From assembly GCA_036388065.1 (NCBI GenBank), contig DASVSP010000061.1:7703-71702 (forward strand): 64,000 bases of DNA, read 5' to 3'. The notes below the pieces were generated by a model. The model was not told the origin of the DNA. It ran no database searches and saw nothing but the letters and a program-made list of their open reading frames with translations. This document shows positions 31,008-37,229 of this stretch, piece by piece. A program made the position numbers and the translations under genes. Source of the DNA: Allosphingosinicella sp. Its GTDB lineage: Bacteria > Pseudomonadota > Alphaproteobacteria > Sphingomonadales > Sphingomonadaceae. Position 1 is the first letter of the stretch, and each line of letters starts with the position of its first letter.

Positions 31008-32834
31008 TCAGGCCGAGTCGCCGGCCGCGAGCGCCTGGTCCCGAAGCTCTCCACGCTCCGCAGCGCGCTTCTGGCGGCGCCACATCGCGGCGTAGAGGCC
31101 GCCGCGGGCAAGCAGCTCATGATGGCGGCCCCGCTCCGCGACTTCGCCGCCGGCGAGCACGAGTATCTCGTCCGAATCGACGATCGTCGAGAGGCGGTGG
31201 GCGATGACGAGCACCGTTCGTTCGGCGGAGATGGAGTGGAGGCTCTCCTGGATCTCCCGCTCGGTCTGGCTGTCGAGGGCGCTGGTCGCCTCGTCGAAGA
31301 CGAGGATCGCGGGATCCTTCAGGACGACCCGGGCGATCGCCACCCGCTGCTTCTCGCCTCCCGACAGCTTCAGCCCGCGCTCGCCCACTCTCGTCTCGTA
31401 ACCGTCGGGAAGCGTGAGGATGAAGTCGTGGATGCTGGCGGCCCGAGCCGCGGCTTCGATCTCCCGGGCCGTCGCGCCCGGGCGGGCGTAGCCGATATTG
31501 TAGCCGATCGTGTCGTTGAACAGGACCGTGTCCTGCGGCACCATTCCGATCGCCCGGCGAAGGCTCTTCTGCGACACCTCGCGCAGATCCTGGCCGTCGA
31601 TGCGTATGGCGCCGCCCCGGACGTCGTAAAAGCGGAACAGGAGGCGCGCGAGCGTGGACTTGCCGCCGCCGCTATGGCCGACGATCGCCACCGTCTTCCC
31701 GGCCGGAACGTCGAACGACACATCTTTCAGGATGGGCCGGCGCGGATCGTAGGCGAAAGTGACGGCGTCGAACGAGACTTCGCCGCCGGTGACCACCAGG
31801 TCGGGTGAGCCCGGCGCATCCGTCACGTCCGGCTGCACCTCGAGCAGCTGGACCAACGACTCGACGTCGGTGATCGATTGCCTCGTTCCGCTGTAGCTCG
31901 ACGCGAGCATTCCGAGCGGCACGTAGAGCTGGAGCAGATAGGCGTTGACCAGAACGAAATCGCCGACCGTCATCGTGCCGGCGGCGACCTCGCGGCCGGC
32001 CATGACCATGACCGCGATCATCCCGGCGGCGATGATCGCCGCCTGGCCGGCGGCGGACAGAGCCTCGACCCTTTCGGCGCGGACCGCGGCCTCCTCGTAG
32101 GCGCGCTTGGCCTGCTCGTAACGTTGCGCTTCGTTCGCCTCGGCGCCGAAATATTTCACCGTCTCATAGTTGAGAATGCTGTCGACGGCGATCGAGATCG
32201 CCGCCACGTCGCACGTGTTGCGGTAGCGCCTTGCGCGGATCTGCCGGCCTGTTGCGGCGATGGTCAGGCCGGCATAGCAAAGCACGGTGGCAAGCACCGC
32301 GACCGCGAAGTCCGCGCTGTAGAAGCCCCACAGGATGGCCGAGACCAGCACCAGCTCCAGAAACGTCGGAACGACGTTGAACAGCATGAGCTCGAGCAGA
32401 AACTCGATTCCGGAGACTCCGCGGTCCACGACCCGGGCGAGGCCGCCGGTCTGCCGATCGAGGTGGACTCGGAGCGACAGCGAATGGATGTGGTTGAACA
32501 TCTGGAGCGCGGTCGACCGGATCGCGCGCTGGGCCACCCTGATGAAGACCAGGCTTCGAACCGCCTCGACCAGCTGCCCGCCGACCTGGGCCACCCCGTA
32601 AGCGAGGATCAGGGCGATCGGGATCGCGGCGAGCGCCGGACCGGACAGTGAGTCGATGATCTGCTTGTAGAGAAAGGGCGCCGCGACCGCGACCAGCTTG
32701 GCCGCGAAGATCAGCGCGACCGAGACGACGACTCGCACCTTCATGCCCGCCTCGCCGCTCGGCCACATCAGCGCCAGCAACTGGCTCAGCGCCCACCGGG
32801 CGGGCGATTGGGGGATGGATTTCGGGTCGTTCAT
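31008..32834 (-). CDS. ABC transporter ATP-binding/permease (ATM1-like half transporter, no C39 peptidase domain)
   Basis: TM domain plus GHSGGGKST, LSGGEKQR, DEATSALD; divergent from the precursor array. Confidence 0.93.
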   Translation of the reverse strand: MNDPKSIPQSPARWALSQLLALMWPSGEAGMKVRVVVSVALIFAAKLVAVAAPFLYKQIIDSLSGPALAAIPIALILAYGVAQVGGQLVEAVRSLVFIRVAQRAIRSTALQMFNHIHSLSLRVHLDRQTGGLARVVDRGVSGIEFLLELMLFNVVPTFLELVLVSAILWGFYSADFAVAVLATVLCYAGLTIAATGRQIRARRYRNTCDVAAISIAVDSILNYETVKYFGAEANEAQRYEQAKRAYEEAAVRAERVEALSAAGQAAIIAAGMIAVMVMAGREVAAGTMTVGDFVLVNAYLLQLYVPLGMLASSYSGTRQSITDVESLVQLLEVQPDVTDAPGSPDLVVTGGEVSFDAVTFAYDPRRPILKDVSFDVPAGKTVAIVGHSGGGKSTLARLLFRFYDVRGGAIRIDGQDLREVSQKSLRRAIGMVPQDTVLFNDTIGYNIGYARPGATAREIEAAARAASIHDFILTLPDGYETRVGERGLKLSGGEKQRVAIARVVLKDPAILVFDEATSALDSQTEREIQESLHSISAERTVLVIAHRLSTIVDSDEILVLAGGEVAERGRHHELLARGGLYAAMWRRQKRAAERGELRDQALAAGDSA

Positions 32835-33004
32835 CCGTTTCGGACCAAAGGCTCCGGCGCCGGCGAAGCGCAATTGGAAGCCCGGATCATGTAATTCGCC
32901 TCGGGCACGGGTCGGCGCACCGCAGTCAGGGGAAAGAATACGCCGATAGGGTTGAAGACACTGAGCACCGGTGTCAGCCTTGGTTTCGGTGAAGCTCCGA
33001 GTCG

Positions 33005-33037
33005 CCGGATGTAATTATATCCGGAAGCGGATATAAT
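33005..33037. promoter_or_regulatory. Palindromic operator and TATAAT -10 box upstream of the precursor array
   Basis: CCGGATGTAATTATATCCGG (20-bp, 1 mismatch) then CGGATATAAT. Confidence 0.6.
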
Positions 33038-33059
33038 ACGCAACTTAGGAGAAGTAGAG

Positions 33060-33221
33060 ATGGAAAGAAAGACCTTTGCGTTTAAGCTGGCGGACAAGGC
33101 CGCGAACAGGACGTCGAAATGGAAGGCGCGCGACGGAGTCTCCATTGCGGGATGCAGCGAGCGTTCCGAAGGGGATTATCGCGATTACGTCAGAGGGGGT
33201 GATAACGGCTACCATTGCTAA
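33060..33221 (+). CDS. RiPP precursor peptide A1 (53 aa)
   Basis: MERKTFAFKLADKAANRTSKWKARDGVSIAG-CSERSEGDYRDYVRGGDNGYHC*; AGGAG RBS. Confidence 0.93.
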   Translation: MERKTFAFKLADKAANRTSKWKARDGVSIAGCSERSEGDYRDYVRGGDNGYHC

Positions 33222-33326
33222 CAGGTAGCTTGAGAGCTCCGACGGAAGTCGGACTCCCCCTCCGGGCGAGTCGAAGGGCGGATTTGATCCAATGCGGATG
33301 AAACTGCCACAGCAGGAGAAGTAGAG

Positions 33327-33491
33327 ATGGAAAAGAAGACCTTTGCGTTCAAGCTGGCCGACAGGGCCGCGAACGGCGCCTCCAAATGGAGGACTCGCGA
33401 CGGCGTTGCTGTCGCCGGATGCACCGACGTCACCGGAGACGGAGATTTGCGCTACAAGCTCAGGCTGGGTGACAACGGAGAGTATTGCTAG
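33327..33491 (+). CDS. RiPP precursor peptide A2 (54 aa)
   Basis: MEKKTFAFKLADRAANGASKWRTRDGVAVAG-CTDVTGDGDLRYKLRLGDNGEYC*; AGGAG RBS. Confidence 0.93.
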   Translation: MEKKTFAFKLADRAANGASKWRTRDGVAVAGCTDVTGDGDLRYKLRLGDNGEYC

Positions 33492-33596
33492 CAGCAGAAC
33501 GTCCTGGAGCCCTCGACTAAAAATCGGGGGCTCCTCGGGTGTCCTTGTCACCCGATCACGTACGAACCGCATAATTTATTGAGCCCGGAGGATAAG

Positions 33597-33758
33597 ATGC
33601 AAAAGAAGACCTTTGCTTTCAAATTGGCCGACAAAAACGCGAACGCCGTTTCCAAATGGAGTGCGCGCGACGGAGTTCCGCTCGCGGGCTGCACTGAAGT
33701 CAGGCTTGGCAATTATCGCGAGTCGAGCAGGTTCGGAGACAACGGCGTTTATTGCTAG
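33597..33758 (+). CDS. RiPP precursor peptide A3 (53 aa)
   Basis: MQKKTFAFKLADKNANAVSKWSARDGVPLAG-CTEVRLGNYRESSRFGDNGVYC*; GGAGG RBS. Confidence 0.93.
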   Translation: MQKKTFAFKLADKNANAVSKWSARDGVPLAGCTEVRLGNYRESSRFGDNGVYC

Positions 33759-33852
33759 ACTCTACTGACCCCGGAGCGACGCTGGCACTGTAGCTGTCCA
33801 ATGAGCCGCAGCAGCTAATGTCGCTCCGATTTACAAACCGTGGAGAATTAAA

Positions 33853-34014
33853 ATGGAAAAGAAGACTTTTGCATTCAAGCTGTCCGACAAGGCCGCCAGG
33901 GGCGCTTCCAAATGGACGGCCCGCGACGGAATCTCGCTCGCCGGCTGCAGCAACGTCGGCGACTACAATTATCGCGCTAGCCGCTTAAGAGGCGACGACG
34001 GGATATATTGCTAG
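33853..34014 (+). CDS. RiPP precursor peptide A4 (53 aa)
   Basis: MEKKTFAFKLSDKAARGASKWTARDGISLAG-CSNVGDYNYRASRLRGDDGIYC*; GGAG RBS. Confidence 0.93.
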   Translation: MEKKTFAFKLSDKAARGASKWTARDGISLAGCSNVGDYNYRASRLRGDDGIYC

Positions 34015-34135
34015 GATCGCTACGTCGCGGAGTCTCCGGCTCAGGCCGGGGGCTCCTTGGCCCGGTCGACCCCGAGACGGTGCGGTCGGTTACCGAAATC
34101 TGACCGAACTCTGAAAAGAATGGCCAGCAAAGGAG

Positions 34136-34285
34136 ATGGAAATGAGGACTTTTGCCTTCAAGCTCGCCGGCAAGACAGCCGGAACCGATTCCAAATGGAT
34201 GGCGCGCGACGGCGTTTCTCTCGCCGCCTGCACTTATGTCGGCGACGGTCAGTATCGTTGGAGAGACAACGGCTACTATTGCTGA
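34136..34285 (+). CDS. RiPP precursor peptide A5 (49 aa; 47 aa if started at ATG 34142, which has better RBS spacing)
   Basis: MEMRTFAFKLAGKTAGTDSKWMARDGVSLAA-CTYVGDGQYRWRDNGYYC*. Confidence 0.92.
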   Translation: MEMRTFAFKLAGKTAGTDSKWMARDGVSLAACTYVGDGQYRWRDNGYYC

Positions 34286-34298
34286 CGGCGGAGCGCAG

Positions 34299-35300
34299 GT
34301 GTCAAAGCGCGTTCTGATCGTCACCAACAGCGACGATCTTCACGCCGACCTGGTGGCGGCCCGGATCGAGTCCGAGGGCGGGGCCGCCTTTCGGCTCGAT
34401 CTCGACGAATATCCCGCCGGCTTCGAAATCGGCTTCGGCTTTTCCGGCGGCCGCTGGGACGGCTCGCTCGTCCGGACGGCGGGCGGGGAGTCGCTCGCGT
34501 TGCAGGACGTCGGAGCGGTCTGGATGCGCAAGCGCGCGTCCTTCCGCTACCGTTCCGACGGCATGGGCGCGCACGAGAAGGCGCATGCCGACGCCGAAAC
34601 CGACCACATGCTGCTGGGCATTCTTCGGTCGCTCGATTGCCGGTGGATGAGCCATCCCGACGCCGTGCGCGGATCGCACTGGAAGCCCGAGCAGCTTCGG
34701 CGCGCGGCGCGAATGGGCTTTGCCGTTCCGGAATCGCTGATGACCAATATCCGTGCGGAAGTGGACCGGTTTTCCGCCACGGCCGAACATGGCATCGTCT
34801 TCAAGCTGCTCTCCTCGATGCTCGACGCGGCCGACTCGGTCGGTCCGCAGGAAGAGCTGGCGCGGGGGGTCCCGACCACCCTGATCGGCCCGGAGCATGA
34901 GGATATGCTCGATTCGGTGGCGGAGCTGCCCTGCTTCTTCCAGCATTATGTTCCAAAGCGCCACGAGCTTCGGGTGACGGTCATCGGCGGATCCGTGTAC
35001 GCCGCCCGGATCCATTCGCAGGACGATCCTCGGACGACGACGGACTGGCGCGACATGTCGGCGGAGATCCGCTACGAGGCCGAGACCCTTCCACCCGAAG
35101 TGGCGAGGCGCTGCCTCGACTTCGTCCACAGCTACGGCCTGACCTTCGGCGCCATCGACCTCGTCGTGACTCCGTCCGGCGACCACGTTTTCCTGGAAAA
35201 CAACCCCGTCGGCCAGTTCCTCTTCGTCGAGCAGCTGGTTCCCGAGCTGGACATGACCGGGGCCGTCGCCCGGTGGCTCGTCGACTCCGCCCGTTCGTGA
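34299..35300 (+). CDS. MvdC/MvdD-family ATP-grasp ligase (graspetide synthetase)
   Basis: GTG start after GGAG, 13 nt after A5; VLIVTNSDDLHAD, KPEQL..A...G..VP...MTN, FQHYVPKRHELRVTVIG, DWR, FGAIDL, FLENNPVGQF. Confidence 0.9.
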   Translation: MSKRVLIVTNSDDLHADLVAARIESEGGAAFRLDLDEYPAGFEIGFGFSGGRWDGSLVRTAGGESLALQDVGAVWMRKRASFRYRSDGMGAHEKAHADAETDHMLLGILRSLDCRWMSHPDAVRGSHWKPEQLRRAARMGFAVPESLMTNIRAEVDRFSATAEHGIVFKLLSSMLDAADSVGPQEELARGVPTTLIGPEHEDMLDSVAELPCFFQHYVPKRHELRVTVIGGSVYAARIHSQDDPRTTTDWRDMSAEIRYEAETLPPEVARRCLDFVHSYGLTFGAIDLVVTPSGDHVFLENNPVGQFLFVEQLVPELDMTGAVARWLVDSARS

Positions 35301-35311
35301 CTCGAGGCCGA

Positions 35312-36184
35312 ATGAACCTTCACCACCACATCGTCGATATCGAACGCCGGCGGCGCAGCCGGCTTCTCGTTTTCGCGGCTTCGAACCTGGAGACGGATCT
35401 GCTTCCCGCACTGTACGACACGTTGCGGGAAATCGGACGCACCGAGCGTCTCGACGTCCTGCTCCACTGCCACGGCGGCGAAGTGACCGCGGCGAGGGCC
35501 ATCGCCCTGCTTCTCCACCAGTTCACCGACCATCTCGCCTTCATCGTCCCGGAGCGGTGCACCTCCTCGGGAACGATCCTCGCGCTCTCGGGCCACGAGA
35601 TCGTCGCCGGGCCGGCCGCTTTGTTCTCGCCGGTCGATCCCCTGCTGCAGGGTCCCACGTCCGGGGCGGACGATCCGCTCGGGTCGATTTCGGCACAGGA
35701 CGTGCGGCTGTTCGGAGTCATGAGCCGGGATTGGTTCGGTCTTCCCGAGGGCGAAGCCGGGCCCAAAGCTCTCTCGGTTCTGTGCGACAACGTCTTCCCG
35801 ACGACCCTGACCTCTTTCTACCGCTCCACGCTCGAGGTCGAGGCCGTCTGCCTCGAATTGCTTTCGCTGCACATGGGCGCAGGCTCGGCGGCGGAGAAAA
35901 AGACGATCGTCGACAGCCTCCTCTACGGCCATCATTCGCACGGCTTCGCGCTGATGCGCGGCGACCTGGCCGCCCTCGGGCTGCCGCTCCGGGGCGACCC
36001 GGAAACCGAAGACATTGCGTGGGAAGTGGCGCGGACGGTCCGCCAGTCCGTCGGGGGCAGCTCGCGGCGGGCAGCGGAGGACGACTGGACCGACGTTCTG
36101 CTCGCGACCCGCTCGGCTTCCCGTCGCCGGCGGCGAAGCCGGGAGGGCATCGGTCCGGCCTGGGAAAGCGGCGAGATCGAATGA
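35312..36184 (+). CDS. SDH-family (ClpP/S49-fold) serine proteinase; alternative start GTG 35297 overlapping the ligase stop
   Basis: DVLLHCHGG, VPERCTSSGTILAL, SPVDP, SHGFAL.R.DL..LGL. Confidence 0.82.
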   Translation: MNLHHHIVDIERRRRSRLLVFAASNLETDLLPALYDTLREIGRTERLDVLLHCHGGEVTAARAIALLLHQFTDHLAFIVPERCTSSGTILALSGHEIVAGPAALFSPVDPLLQGPTSGADDPLGSISAQDVRLFGVMSRDWFGLPEGEAGPKALSVLCDNVFPTTLTSFYRSTLEVEAVCLELLSLHMGAGSAAEKKTIVDSLLYGHHSHGFALMRGDLAALGLPLRGDPETEDIAWEVARTVRQSVGGSSRRAAEDDWTDVLLATRSASRRRRRSREGIGPAWESGEIE

Positions 36185-36687
36185 CGAGCCTGGCCGCGTT
36201 TTCGGGCGAGGCGTGCCGGCTCTACGTGATGGTCGCCCTTGCCGCCGCCGTTGCCGGCAAGTCGATGGCGATCGACGATTTCAGGGACACGCTTCTCGAC
36301 CTGCCGGGACTGTCGCCGCGCAATTCCGGTGCCGCGGCGCTTGCGGTGATCGGCAGCGAGGCCGTGATCCTGGGCTGGGCGGCGGTCGCGCCGCGGACCG
36401 GAATGGTCGCGGCCCTGGCGGCCTTCGCGCTGATGTCGAGCGCGATCCTTGCCGCCCTTCTCACGGGCCGGCCGCTGATGTGCAATTGCTTCGGGGGACG
36501 GGCACGGCCGGTCTCCTGGCTGGACCTGGTCCGCAACCTGGCGCTGATCGGCGCCTGCGCGTCCTTCCTTCTGGCGCCGCCCTTGGGCGCGCCCGGCCTT
36601 GCAGGATGGCTGCTGCTCCTCGGCCTGGCGTTCATCGCCTTCCTGGTTTCGGCCAACCTCGACGAGATCGCGGCGCCGGCCCGCTGA
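36181..36687 (+). CDS. MauE/DoxX-family redox membrane protein
   Basis: ATGA overlap with protease stop; 4-5 TM; CNCFG motif then VSWLDLVRN. Confidence 0.87.
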   Translation: MTSLAAFSGEACRLYVMVALAAAVAGKSMAIDDFRDTLLDLPGLSPRNSGAAALAVIGSEAVILGWAAVAPRTGMVAALAAFALMSSAILAALLTGRPLMCNCFGGRARPVSWLDLVRNLALIGACASFLLAPPLGAPGLAGWLLLLGLAFIAFLVSANLDEIAAPAR

Positions 36688-37229
36688 TGGACTCCGATCT
36701 CATCGTCCTCGTGCTCGTCGTGGTGACGTTCGCAGCCGCGTTCAACCTGTGGCTGACCTTTCGCCTCTCCGCTCGAATCCGGGAGATGACGGCGCCCGCC
36801 TTCACCGTCACCCTCGGTGATCCGGTACCTTCGTTCGAGGGCACGGCGTCGGCCGGGAGCCGGGCGATCCGGTCCTCGGATCTCGCCGGGCAGCCGGCGG
36901 TGCTGGTGTTCCTCTCGGCCGGGTGCAGCACCTGCGCGGGGCACATCCCGGAGCTGGCCGCGATCCTGGACGGAGCGGGGCGGCTCGGTGTGAGCCTCTG
37001 GATCGTTCCGGCCGACGACGTCCACGACATCGCCCGCCTCGTCGGCGGAACGCCGCTGGCGGAGCGCGTGCTGGTCCTCGAACCGGCTCACCGCCTTCGC
37101 CTCAATCCGATGAGATCGGCGCCCTTCTACCTGTTCATCGACGAGAATTCGGTCGCCCGGGCGAGCAACAATCTCGGCGACGAGGATTGGACAACGTTCG
37201 TCGAGCAGATGTTGGAAGGGGCTGGATAG
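36687..37229 (+). CDS. MauD-like membrane-anchored thioredoxin (CxxC)
   Basis: TGATG overlap; N-terminal TM; GDPVPSF, LVFLSAGCSTC, APFYLFID. Confidence 0.85.
   Translation: MDSDLIVLVLVVVTFAAAFNLWLTFRLSARIREMTAPAFTVTLGDPVPSFEGTASAGSRAIRSSDLAGQPAVLVFLSAGCSTCAGHIPELAAILDGAGRLGVSLWIVPADDVHDIARLVGGTPLAERVLVLEPAHRLRLNPMRSAPFYLFIDENSVARASNNLGDEDWTTFVEQMLEGAG

What the first reader, a model, noticed from the sequence alone, without database searches (positions are those of the whole stretch)
33153..34285. Predicted double-clasp topology: Ser/Thr2-Asp ester next to a Cys1-Cys(C-terminal) disulfide
Seen: invariant core positions are C1, S/T2, a central [YL]R and terminal D-[ND]-G-x-[YH]-C-stop. That gives one conserved hydroxyl donor, one conserved Asp acceptor and two Cys at the extreme ends. 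Inference: one macrolactone (16, 17, 16, 16 and 12 residues in A1-A5) plus a terminal disulfide, closing a variable loop. Alternatives: a Cys-Asp thioester, use of the C-terminal carboxylate, or the conserved S-K-W-x-x-R-D segment (Ser/Lys donors, Asp acceptor, loosely like microviridin TxKYPSD) being part of the modified core.
Basis: inference. Interest (0 to 1): 0.82.

Follow-up and report, generated by a model that had tools for sequence, protein, structure and literature searches.

The report
Ester-plus-disulfide clasped graspetide family
Five small genes encode peptides that the neighbouring enzymes likely close with one ester bond and one disulfide bond around a freely varying loop; the family is catalogued in print with no product found, and its disulfide-handling membrane proteins are predicted to face the cytoplasm, where disulfides normally do not form.

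Summary
Five precursors precede an MvdD-type ATP-grasp ligase, an SDH-type protease, MauE and a membrane-anchored thioredoxin. Among 94 distinct precursors found with a leader-only profile, Cys1 and the last Cys are in 94, Ser/Thr2 in 93, Asp(-5) in 93. The loop holds no Cys in 1,509 residues. Three divergent actinobacterial precursors keep the same four residues. S-K-W-x-x-R-D is in only 9 of 94, so it is leader. The family is in print: Makarova 2022 cluster 281 (single ester already predicted) and graspetide Group 9 (Carter 2026). I found no characterised member or disulfide proposal, but key papers were unavailable. New here: charge bias predicts that MauE's CxC (48/48) and the thioredoxin (46/47) face the cytoplasm, so the disulfide may form before export. 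The scan earlier noted a similar MauE cassette on other, actinobacterial DNA. All chemistry is inferred. Verdict: new variant of a known kind.

The parts
31008..32834 (-). Atm1-type ABC exporter without a peptidase domain, divergently transcribed; likely exports the product
   Evidence: Pfam ABC_membrane + ABC_tran only; best PDB hit is an ATM1-type exporter, E 1.6e-167; 59-92% identical orthologs sit on the opposite strand upstream in 13 related loci, and other clade loci carry a different ABC family; a second copy at 52% identity lies elsewhere in the genome
33060..33221 (+). Precursor A1; predicted core 33153-33218 (22 aa; Cys1, Ser2, Asp17, Cys22)
33327..33491 (+). Precursor A2; predicted core 33420-33488 (23 aa; Cys1, Thr2, Asp18, Cys23)
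33597..33758 (+). Precursor A3; predicted core 33690-33755 (22 aa; Cys1, Thr2, Asp17, Cys22)
33853..34014 (+). Precursor A4; predicted core 33946-34011 (22 aa; Cys1, Ser2, Asp17, Cys22)
34136..34285 (+). Precursor A5 (may start at 34142); predicted core 34229-34282 (18 aa; Thr2 is its only Ser/Thr/Lys; Asp13, Cys18)
34299..35300 (+). Graspetide synthetase (MvdD-type ATP-grasp ligase), GTG start
   Evidence: PF21068 E 2.9e-16; TIGR04187 229.5 bits and TIGR04184 202.7 bits, both under their cut-offs; PDB 5IG9, 7MGV, 5IG8, 9BOU, 7M4S, 7DRM
35312..36184 (+). SDH-type ClpP-fold serine protease, likely the leader peptidase; no signal peptide evident
   Evidence: PF01972 over cut-off; S85, D109, H210 and C83 invariant in 53 of 53 homologs; present in 48 of 48 clade loci with enough DNA
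36181..36687 (+). MauE, five-helix membrane protein with C101-x-C103-F-G
   Evidence: PF07291 E 1e-16; both Cys in 48 of 48; AlphaFold2 pLDDT 93.7 with five long helices and CxC between helices 3 and 4
36687..37229 (+). MauD-like thioredoxin-fold protein with N-terminal membrane anchor and CxxC (CSTC); its start overlaps the MauE stop
   Evidence: AhpC-TSA and Redoxin; CxxC in 47 of 47; the clade profile hits canonical MauD at E 4e-11 to 2e-9; fused to MauE in L010/L111 and L123

Best explanation
Each precursor is likely converted into an 18-23-residue bicyclic peptide: the ATP-grasp ligase likely joins the Ser/Thr2 hydroxyl to the side chain of the Asp five residues before the end, and the MauE/thioredoxin pair likely oxidises Cys1 and the terminal Cys to a disulfide. 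This would give an 8-residue clasp ring on a variable 12-23-residue loop, a two-rung hairpin whose outer rung is a disulfide. Inferred sequence of events: (1) the ligase binds the leader (F-A-F-K-L and the Trp 11 residues before Cys1), makes an Asp acyl-phosphate with ATP and closes one macrolactone; (2) the thioredoxin accepts two electrons from the peptide thiols and passes them through MauE's CxC to the membrane quinone pool; (3) the SDH protease removes the leader before Cys1; (4) the ABC transporter exports the product. Charge bias predicts that both redox sites face the cytoplasm. The disulfide would then form before export, and possibly before the ester, holding donor and acceptor together whatever the loop length and masking Cys1 as a competing nucleophile. 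Shown: gene content, conservation, co-occurrence. Inferred: every bond, the cleavage site, the topology and the order. The biological target is unknown; five paralogs with divergent loops suggest a diversified secreted effector or signal.
For: Unbiased set (leader-only profile over 96 ligase-anchored sequences; 105 hits, 94 distinct, 62 loci; 15 were profile seeds): first and last Cys 94/94, exactly two Cys 93/94, S/T2 93/94, D(-5) 93/94. No Cys in 1,509 loop residues. Four cores have S/T2 as their only Ser/Thr/Lys donor (window A5, L013, L041, L044), and one has D(-5) as its only acid (L068). Three actinobacterial precursors with a different leader type keep W(-11), C1, S/T2, D(-5) and the terminal C beside a fused MauE-thioredoxin; the L010 ligase is 41% identical to the window's. 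MauE and thioredoxin occur in 46 of 48 clade loci with enough downstream DNA; MauE in 0 of 11 distant ligase loci. Their Cys motifs are invariant. A clade member with a six-Cys precursor has the same cassette (L125). MauE proteins replaced DsbB in E. coli and needed the CXC (bioRxiv 10.64898/2026.03.05.709764). Makarova 2022 says a single ester is theoretically possible for cluster 281. Topology: K+R on the CxC side exceeds the other side in 48/48 MauE (means 7.9 vs 0.8), and basic residues follow the anchor in 46/47 thioredoxins.
Against: No experiment exists for any member in what I could read. L040 and L059 (near-identical loci, same precursor) keep both Cys but have no MauE, thioredoxin or exporter on the fetched DNA. 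One precursor has His instead of D(-5) and no acid at all (L014), and one has Cys at position 2 (L060). Most cores have extra, unconserved donors and acceptors, so additional rings in single members are possible. The MauE proteins shown to be oxidases are four-helix proteins predicted to face the periplasm, unlike these five-helix ones, and an earlier study cited there proposed a reductase role. The loci are related, so the counts are not independent. I had no periplasm-facing MauE as a method control. The actinobacterial precursors have Pro, not Gly, before Cys1, so the cut site is not certain.
Confidence: 0.62

Rival explanations
1. Natural native-chemical-ligation relay. The Asp is first linked as an ester or as a Cys1 thioester. 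After leader removal the acyl group migrates to the new N-terminal amine of Cys1, giving a lasso-type N-terminal-Asp macrolactam, and the freed thiol then forms the disulfide.
For: Cys1 sits at the predicted cut site in 94/94. Ester-forming graspetide ligases make thioesters efficiently with Cys substitutions, and an engineered thioester-linked ThfA underwent an S-to-N shift (PMC12291112 passages). L060 has Cys2 and no other donor.
Against: S/T2 is conserved in 93/94 plus 3/3 actinobacterial precursors, which a direct Cys1 thioester would not need. O-to-S or O-to-N transfer from residue 2 to residue 1 needs an 8-9-membered transition state (my reasoning). The L060 Cys codon is one base from a Ser codon.
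Confidence: 0.1
2. One macrolactone but no disulfide in the working product. The two thiols stay free or bind a metal, and MauE/thioredoxin act as a reducing or repair system.
For: A reductase role for MauE has been proposed (cited). The window's exporter is Atm1-type, a family annotated as heavy-metal exporters. Glutaredoxin-MauE fusions are common (18 of 26 MauE ORFs listed). L040/L059 lack the pair.
Against: A dedicated reductant facing an already reducing cytoplasm is redundant (inference). Tested MauE proteins were oxidases. An exported two-Cys peptide would oxidise anyway. The Atm1-type exporter is replaced by another ABC family in many clade loci.
Confidence: 0.11
3. The clasp is as predicted but incomplete: further ester or amide links form among unconserved Ser/Thr/Lys and Asp/Glu in the loop, or the Cys pair links molecules to each other (dimers, mixed paralog pairs).
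For: Characterised graspetide ligases typically install several links (PMC13097080). Most cores carry 1-5 more donors and 1-6 more acids; position 3 is D or E in 43/94.
Against: No second donor or acceptor position is conserved, and minimal cores allow only one link.
Confidence: 0.11
4. The C-terminal carboxylate is the acceptor, or the S-K-W-x-x-R-D segment is part of the modified core.
For: Cys is the last residue in 93/94, and L014's second precursor has no Asp or Glu. R and G of the W-x-x-R-D-G segment are strongly conserved in proteobacteria (92/94 and 86/94).
Against: D(-5) is 93/94. L034 keeps D(-5) and both Cys but extends four residues past the last Cys. Ser at W-2 is 11/94, Lys at W-1 32/94, Asp at W+4 68/94, and the full motif 9/94. 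Actinobacterial precursors keep only the Trp.
Confidence: 0.06

Closest known systems
Graspetide precursor cluster 281 (Makarova et al. 2022, PMC8939145), listed under Group 9 in Carter et al. 2026 (PMC13097080)
   Same: The published consensus matches the window precursors: FAFKL leader, W-x-x-R-D-G, AG-C-T start and D-x-G-x-Y-C end (48 supplement rows marked cluster281). Like precursors are labelled Group 9. A single ester was predicted in 2022, and a serine proteinase is noted for over half of Group 9.
   Different: Not different in membership. The Makarova main text has no 'disulfide' or 'MauE' and suggests conserved Cys as thioether donors for radical SAM enzymes; none of the operon's ORFs scanned here is one. 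Group 9 is heterogeneous and includes Cys-free precursors. I found no characterised product.
Hairpin (ring-within-ring) graspetides such as plesiocin (PsnB, PDB 7DRM) and fuscimiditide (ThfB)
   Same: Same ligase chemistry and nested two-rung topology; plesiocin is named as the hairpin example.
   Different: Here only one rung can be an ester or amide; the outer rung is predicted to be a disulfide made by separate redox proteins. Single-core precursors occur in tandem genes.
Microviridin ligases MdnB/MdnC, CdnC (PDB 5IG8, 5IG9, 7MGV)
   Same: Closest solved ligases (E 4.7e-42 to 1.6e-32); an aromatic-rich leader motif analogous to PFFARFL.
   Different: One ligase instead of two, no TxKxPSD core, and below the TIGR04184/04185 cut-offs.
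MauE/MauD of methylamine dehydrogenase clusters, and DsbB-like MauE (bioRxiv 10.64898/2026.03.05.709764)
   Same: MauE with CxC between helices 3 and 4, plus an adjacent anchored CxxC thioredoxin. Canonical pairs are hit by the clade profiles and show the same charge bias (6/6).
   Different: The substrate is predicted to be a two-Cys RiPP. The tested oxidases are four-helix and predicted periplasm-facing; these are five-helix and predicted cytoplasm-facing.
MauE/MauD-containing candidate RiPP clusters of decRiPPter (PMC7794033)
   Same: MauE (and once MauD) proposed to modify Cys-containing RiPP precursors.
   Different: Those are Streptomyces clusters with precursors of at least 8 Cys; the passages read do not link them to a graspetide ligase.

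Membership tests
Graspetides (RiPP class) | Adjacent ATP-grasp ligase of the graspetide-synthetase family | tested here: met
   PF21068 over cut-off; TIGR04187/04184 hits under cut-off; PDB hits to solved ATP-grasp ligases
Graspetides (RiPP class) | Short precursor with a conserved leader and conserved Ser/Thr/Lys donor and Asp/Glu acceptor | tested here: met
   S/T2 93/94, D(-5) 93/94
Graspetides (RiPP class) | ATP-dependent side-chain macrolactone or macrolactam in the product | not testable with these tools
   needs MS and mutagenesis
Cluster 281 / Group 9 | Precursor matches the cluster 281 consensus | tested here: met
   compared by eye with the published consensus
Cluster 281 / Group 9 | Ligase falls in the Group 9 similarity-network cluster | tested here: inconclusive
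   network not recomputed; precursors of this type, including a Sphingomonadales one, are labelled Group 9 in the supplement; own tree shows one clade
Cluster 281 / Group 9 | Co-occurring serine proteinase | tested here: met
   PF01972; 48/48 clade loci; text
Microviridins (Group 1) | TxKxPSD core motif | tested here: not met
   absent from the cores; the S-K-W-x-x-R-D look-alike is in 9/94
Microviridins (Group 1) | Two ligases of MvdC and MvdD type | tested here: not met
   one ligase in the window operon, below both cut-offs
DsbB-like MauE oxidase | CXC active site between helices 3 and 4, followed by F-G | tested here: met
   C101/C103/F104/G105 48/48; model
DsbB-like MauE oxidase | Thioredoxin-family partner | tested here: met
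   adjacent or fused CxxC protein in 46/48
DsbB-like MauE oxidase | CXC faces the periplasm | tested here: inconclusive
   the positive-inside rule predicts the opposite side in 48/48, but this is a prediction without a periplasm-facing control
DsbB-like MauE oxidase | Oxidase activity (dsbB complementation) | not testable with these tools
   shown only for two other MauE proteins

The most novel reading that the evidence does not exclude
This family uses an inverted, cytoplasm-facing MauE/thioredoxin oxidase to close a Cys1-Cys(terminal) disulfide inside the cell. The disulfide pre-organises Ser/Thr2 and Asp(-5) so that one ligase can close loops of 12 to 23 residues of almost any sequence. 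It would be the first graspetide with a disulfide rung and a natural cytoplasmic disulfide-forming relay for a RiPP, and the same orientation would apply to canonical MauE/MauD, whose substrate carries a twin-arginine motif.
Probability: 0.35. Interest if true: 0.75.

Novelty: new variant of a known kind. Interest (0 to 1): 0.52.

Why it matters
Known graspetides close several ester or amide rings, and a 2026 paper lists only acetylation, methyl ester/aspartimide and hydroxylation-type secondary changes. A one-ester, one-disulfide clasp would be a new ring pattern and a new secondary modification. The family is large (831 database precursors at E <= 0.001) and includes Janthinobacterium and Massilia, so it is directly testable. 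A clasp that tolerates natural loops of 12-23 residues is a ready scaffold for cyclic-peptide libraries. If the MauE/thioredoxin pair really faces the cytoplasm, it offers a small substrate for settling what MauE/MauD do, a role still disputed (oxidase or reductase). It might also provide a natural tool for cytoplasmic disulfide formation, now done with an oxidase such as Erv1p or inverted DsbB/VKOR.

Tried and rejected
Pfam and NCBIfam have no model for the precursors. AlphaFold2 on precursor A1 gave pLDDT 51.8, pTM 0.12 and no usable structure. The SDH protease-precursor complex job returned no verdict (score 0.00) and is not used as evidence. Foldseek of the MauE model found no PDB match at E <= 0.001, and the SDH profile had no PDB match. 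The 120 database precursors fit all four core positions 120/120, but they were selected by a full-length profile, so I did not rely on them. Random genome samples gave few relatives: 4 of 401 in the own phylum, including the own genome; 2 of 401; 5 of 301. Plasmids gave 26 records, all under 60% identity. A clean contrast with Cys-free Group 9 loci was therefore not obtained: only L110 had a clearly Cys-free candidate precursor and no MauE or SDH, and the L069 candidate has three Cys but no MauE on the fetched DNA. Whether the L040/L059 organism has MauE elsewhere could not be checked. No sigma-70 promoter or terminator was found at 32800-34320. Rejected: the microviridin-like reading of S-K-W-x-x-R-D; G(-3), N/D(-4) and the Arg as chemical requirements (not kept in all actinobacterial cores); radical-SAM thioethers (no such family among the operon's ORFs).

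Full report
Observation. The region holds five short + strand genes, A1-A5, at 33060-34285. Each has exactly two Cys (C32 and the last residue), Ser or Thr at 33, and an Asp five residues before the last Cys; the implied rings are 16, 17, 16, 16 and 12 residues. None of the five matches a Pfam or NCBIfam model.

Context. Downstream lie an MvdD-type ATP-grasp ligase (34299-35300), an SDH-type ClpP-fold protease (35312-36184), MauE (36181-36687) and a membrane-anchored thioredoxin-fold protein (36687-37229). An Atm1-type ABC exporter without a peptidase domain is transcribed divergently upstream. The ligase's nearest solved relatives are ATP-grasp ligases including CdnC, AMdnB and 5IG8/5IG9. The closest ligases (87-90%) are from Allosphingosinicella assemblies.

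Conservation test. I gathered ligase loci from genomes and metagenomes. To avoid circularity I searched 96 sequences (95 loci plus the window) with a profile of the leader only. This gave 105 precursors, 94 distinct, in 62 loci; 15 of them seeded the profile. Counts: first and last Cys 94/94; last Cys terminal 93/94; exactly two Cys 93/94; S/T2 93/94; D(-5) 93/94; Trp-to-Cys1 spacing of 11 in 93/94; ring size 12-23. After clustering cores at 60% identity, S/T2, D(-5) and terminal Cys are each 42/43. The loop background is 13% S/T, 11% D and 0 Cys in 1,509 residues.

Exceptions and minimal cores. L060 has Cys2 and no other donor. L014's second precursor has His for Asp and no acid. L034 runs four residues past the last Cys. 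Four cores have S/T2 as their only donor and one has D(-5) as its only acid, so these allow a single link. Three actinobacterial precursors not found by that profile (L010, two in L123) have a different leader type but keep W(-11), C1, S/T2, D(-5) and the terminal Cys.

Disulfide evidence. These ligases form one clade. Of 68 clade loci, 48 had enough downstream DNA; 46 have MauE and the thioredoxin and 48 have the protease. None of 11 distant ligase loci with enough DNA has MauE or the protease. The two exceptions, L040 and L059, are near-identical and keep both Cys. Two actinobacterial clade ligases (L124, second ligase of L123) show neither cassette nor a recognisable precursor; another (L125) pairs the cassette with a six-Cys precursor. 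MauE's C101 and C103 are in 48/48, the thioredoxin CxxC in 47/47, and protease S85, D109, H210 in 53/53. Reading those three as the catalytic triad rests on invariance and on my recall of the family. A 2026 preprint (10.64898/2026.03.05.709764; passages and section 5 read) shows two MauE proteins replacing DsbB through the CXC, and cites an earlier reductase proposal. Related loci are not independent, so these counts show retention, not statistics.

Which side of the membrane. The AlphaFold2 model of MauE (pLDDT 93.7) has five long helices with CxC between the third and fourth. Lys+Arg on the CxC side exceed the other side in 48/48 homologs (means 7.9 vs 0.8; the two basic residues within helix 1 left out). 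Basic residues follow rather than precede the thioredoxin's anchor in 46/47. The positive-inside rule (established knowledge, recalled) puts both redox sites in the cytoplasm. Six canonical MauE proteins from MauD loci show the same bias, and two of the seven MauD loci showed a neighbouring Cys-rich ORF with a twin-arginine motif in my simple scan. A common proteobacterial MauE type has an N-terminal glutaredoxin with no evident signal peptide (18 of 26 ORFs listed). The preprint's oxidases are four-helix and predicted periplasmic. I had no periplasm-facing control, so this is a prediction.

Mechanism. Most likely (0.62): one Ser/Thr2-Asp(-5) macrolactone by the ligase, a Cys1-Cys(terminal) disulfide by thioredoxin and MauE, leader removal by the protease and export by the ABC transporter. 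The product is an 8-residue clasp on a variable loop. If the oxidase faces the cytoplasm, the disulfide could come first and pre-organise the ester. Rivals: free or metal-bound thiols with a reducing MauE (0.11); extra rings or intermolecular disulfides (0.11); acyl transfer to Cys1 ending in an N-terminal lactam (0.10; precedent in engineered ThfA, PMC12291112 passages); C-terminal carboxylate or leader-segment chemistry (0.06). All bonds are inferred.

Prior knowledge. Makarova 2022 (PMC8939145; passages, sections 5 and 7, supplement searches and one supplement part) lists this family as cluster 281, marked new. It says a single ester is theoretically possible, and treats conserved Cys as possible thioether donors; its main text has no 'disulfide', 'MauE' or 'thioredoxin' (one supplement file was cut when stored). 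Carter 2026 (PMC13097080; parts 1-2 of 6, supplement search and one part) labels such precursors Group 9 and notes a serine proteinase in over half. Its SI PDF with the co-occurrence table could not be read and may name MauE. decRiPPter (PMC7794033, passages) proposed MauE/MauD as modifiers of Cys-rich RiPP precursors. Passages of PMC9576775, PMC11626197, PMC10885120, PMC13001092 and PMC4727284 were read; none describes this family. Ramesh 2021 and Choi and Link 2023 were not held, and Lee 2020 was not seen. Nine literature searches showed no characterised member and no disulfide-containing natural graspetide, within a library that lacks most subscription papers.

Verdict. A real feature and a member of a catalogued but apparently uncharacterised graspetide family. 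The ester was predicted before. The disulfide rung, its dedicated MauE/thioredoxin pair and their predicted cytoplasmic orientation were not found in print. New variant of a known kind; interest 0.52, and 0.75 if the cytoplasmic oxidase reading (probability about 0.35) holds.

Noticed in passing
window 33014-33037: Perfect 10-bp inverted repeat with a 4-nt spacer just upstream of A1, between the divergent exporter and the precursor genes; a candidate operator. An 11-bp hairpin follows A2 at 33506-33534.
   Followed up: no
window cores; family-wide: An Arg lies in the loop of 92/94 cores, usually after an aromatic or hydrophobic residue (89/94), at variable distance from both clasp residues. 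Unexplained; it may be a target-binding or recognition residue. The L010 core lacks a loop Arg.
   Followed up: partly
window 35312-36184 (SDH protease, residue 83): A Cys two residues before the presumed catalytic Ser is invariant in 53/53 homologs; it could contact the substrate's Cys1 or be redox-sensitive.
   Followed up: no
L060:1381-1572: Precursor with Cys at position 2 and no other Ser/Thr/Lys in the core: a candidate natural thioester graspetide, or a one-base change or error.
   Followed up: partly
L125:1647-7131 (minus strand): Actinobacterial locus with a clade ligase, SDH protease, MauE, thioredoxin and ABC exporter, but a six-Cys precursor of a different pattern.
   Followed up: partly
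L124:6514-7566 and L123:13247-14368: Clade ligases with no recognisable precursor and no MauE or protease beside them; possibly orphaned copies.
   Followed up: partly
L105:1069-1911 (own genome, contig C24): Glutaredoxin-MauE fusion, a type seen in 18 of 26 listed MauE ORFs. The own genome (89% complete) gave no DsbB hit.
   Followed up: partly
L097-L103: Canonical MauE/MauD pairs show the same cytoplasm-facing charge bias, and two lie beside a twin-arginine, Cys-rich ORF, suggesting that amine-dehydrogenase small-subunit disulfides may form before export.
   Followed up: partly
L040:4503-6888 and L059: Reduced cluster (precursor, ligase, protease only) among histidine-related genes; both Cys kept without MauE, thioredoxin or exporter on the fetched DNA.
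   Followed up: partly
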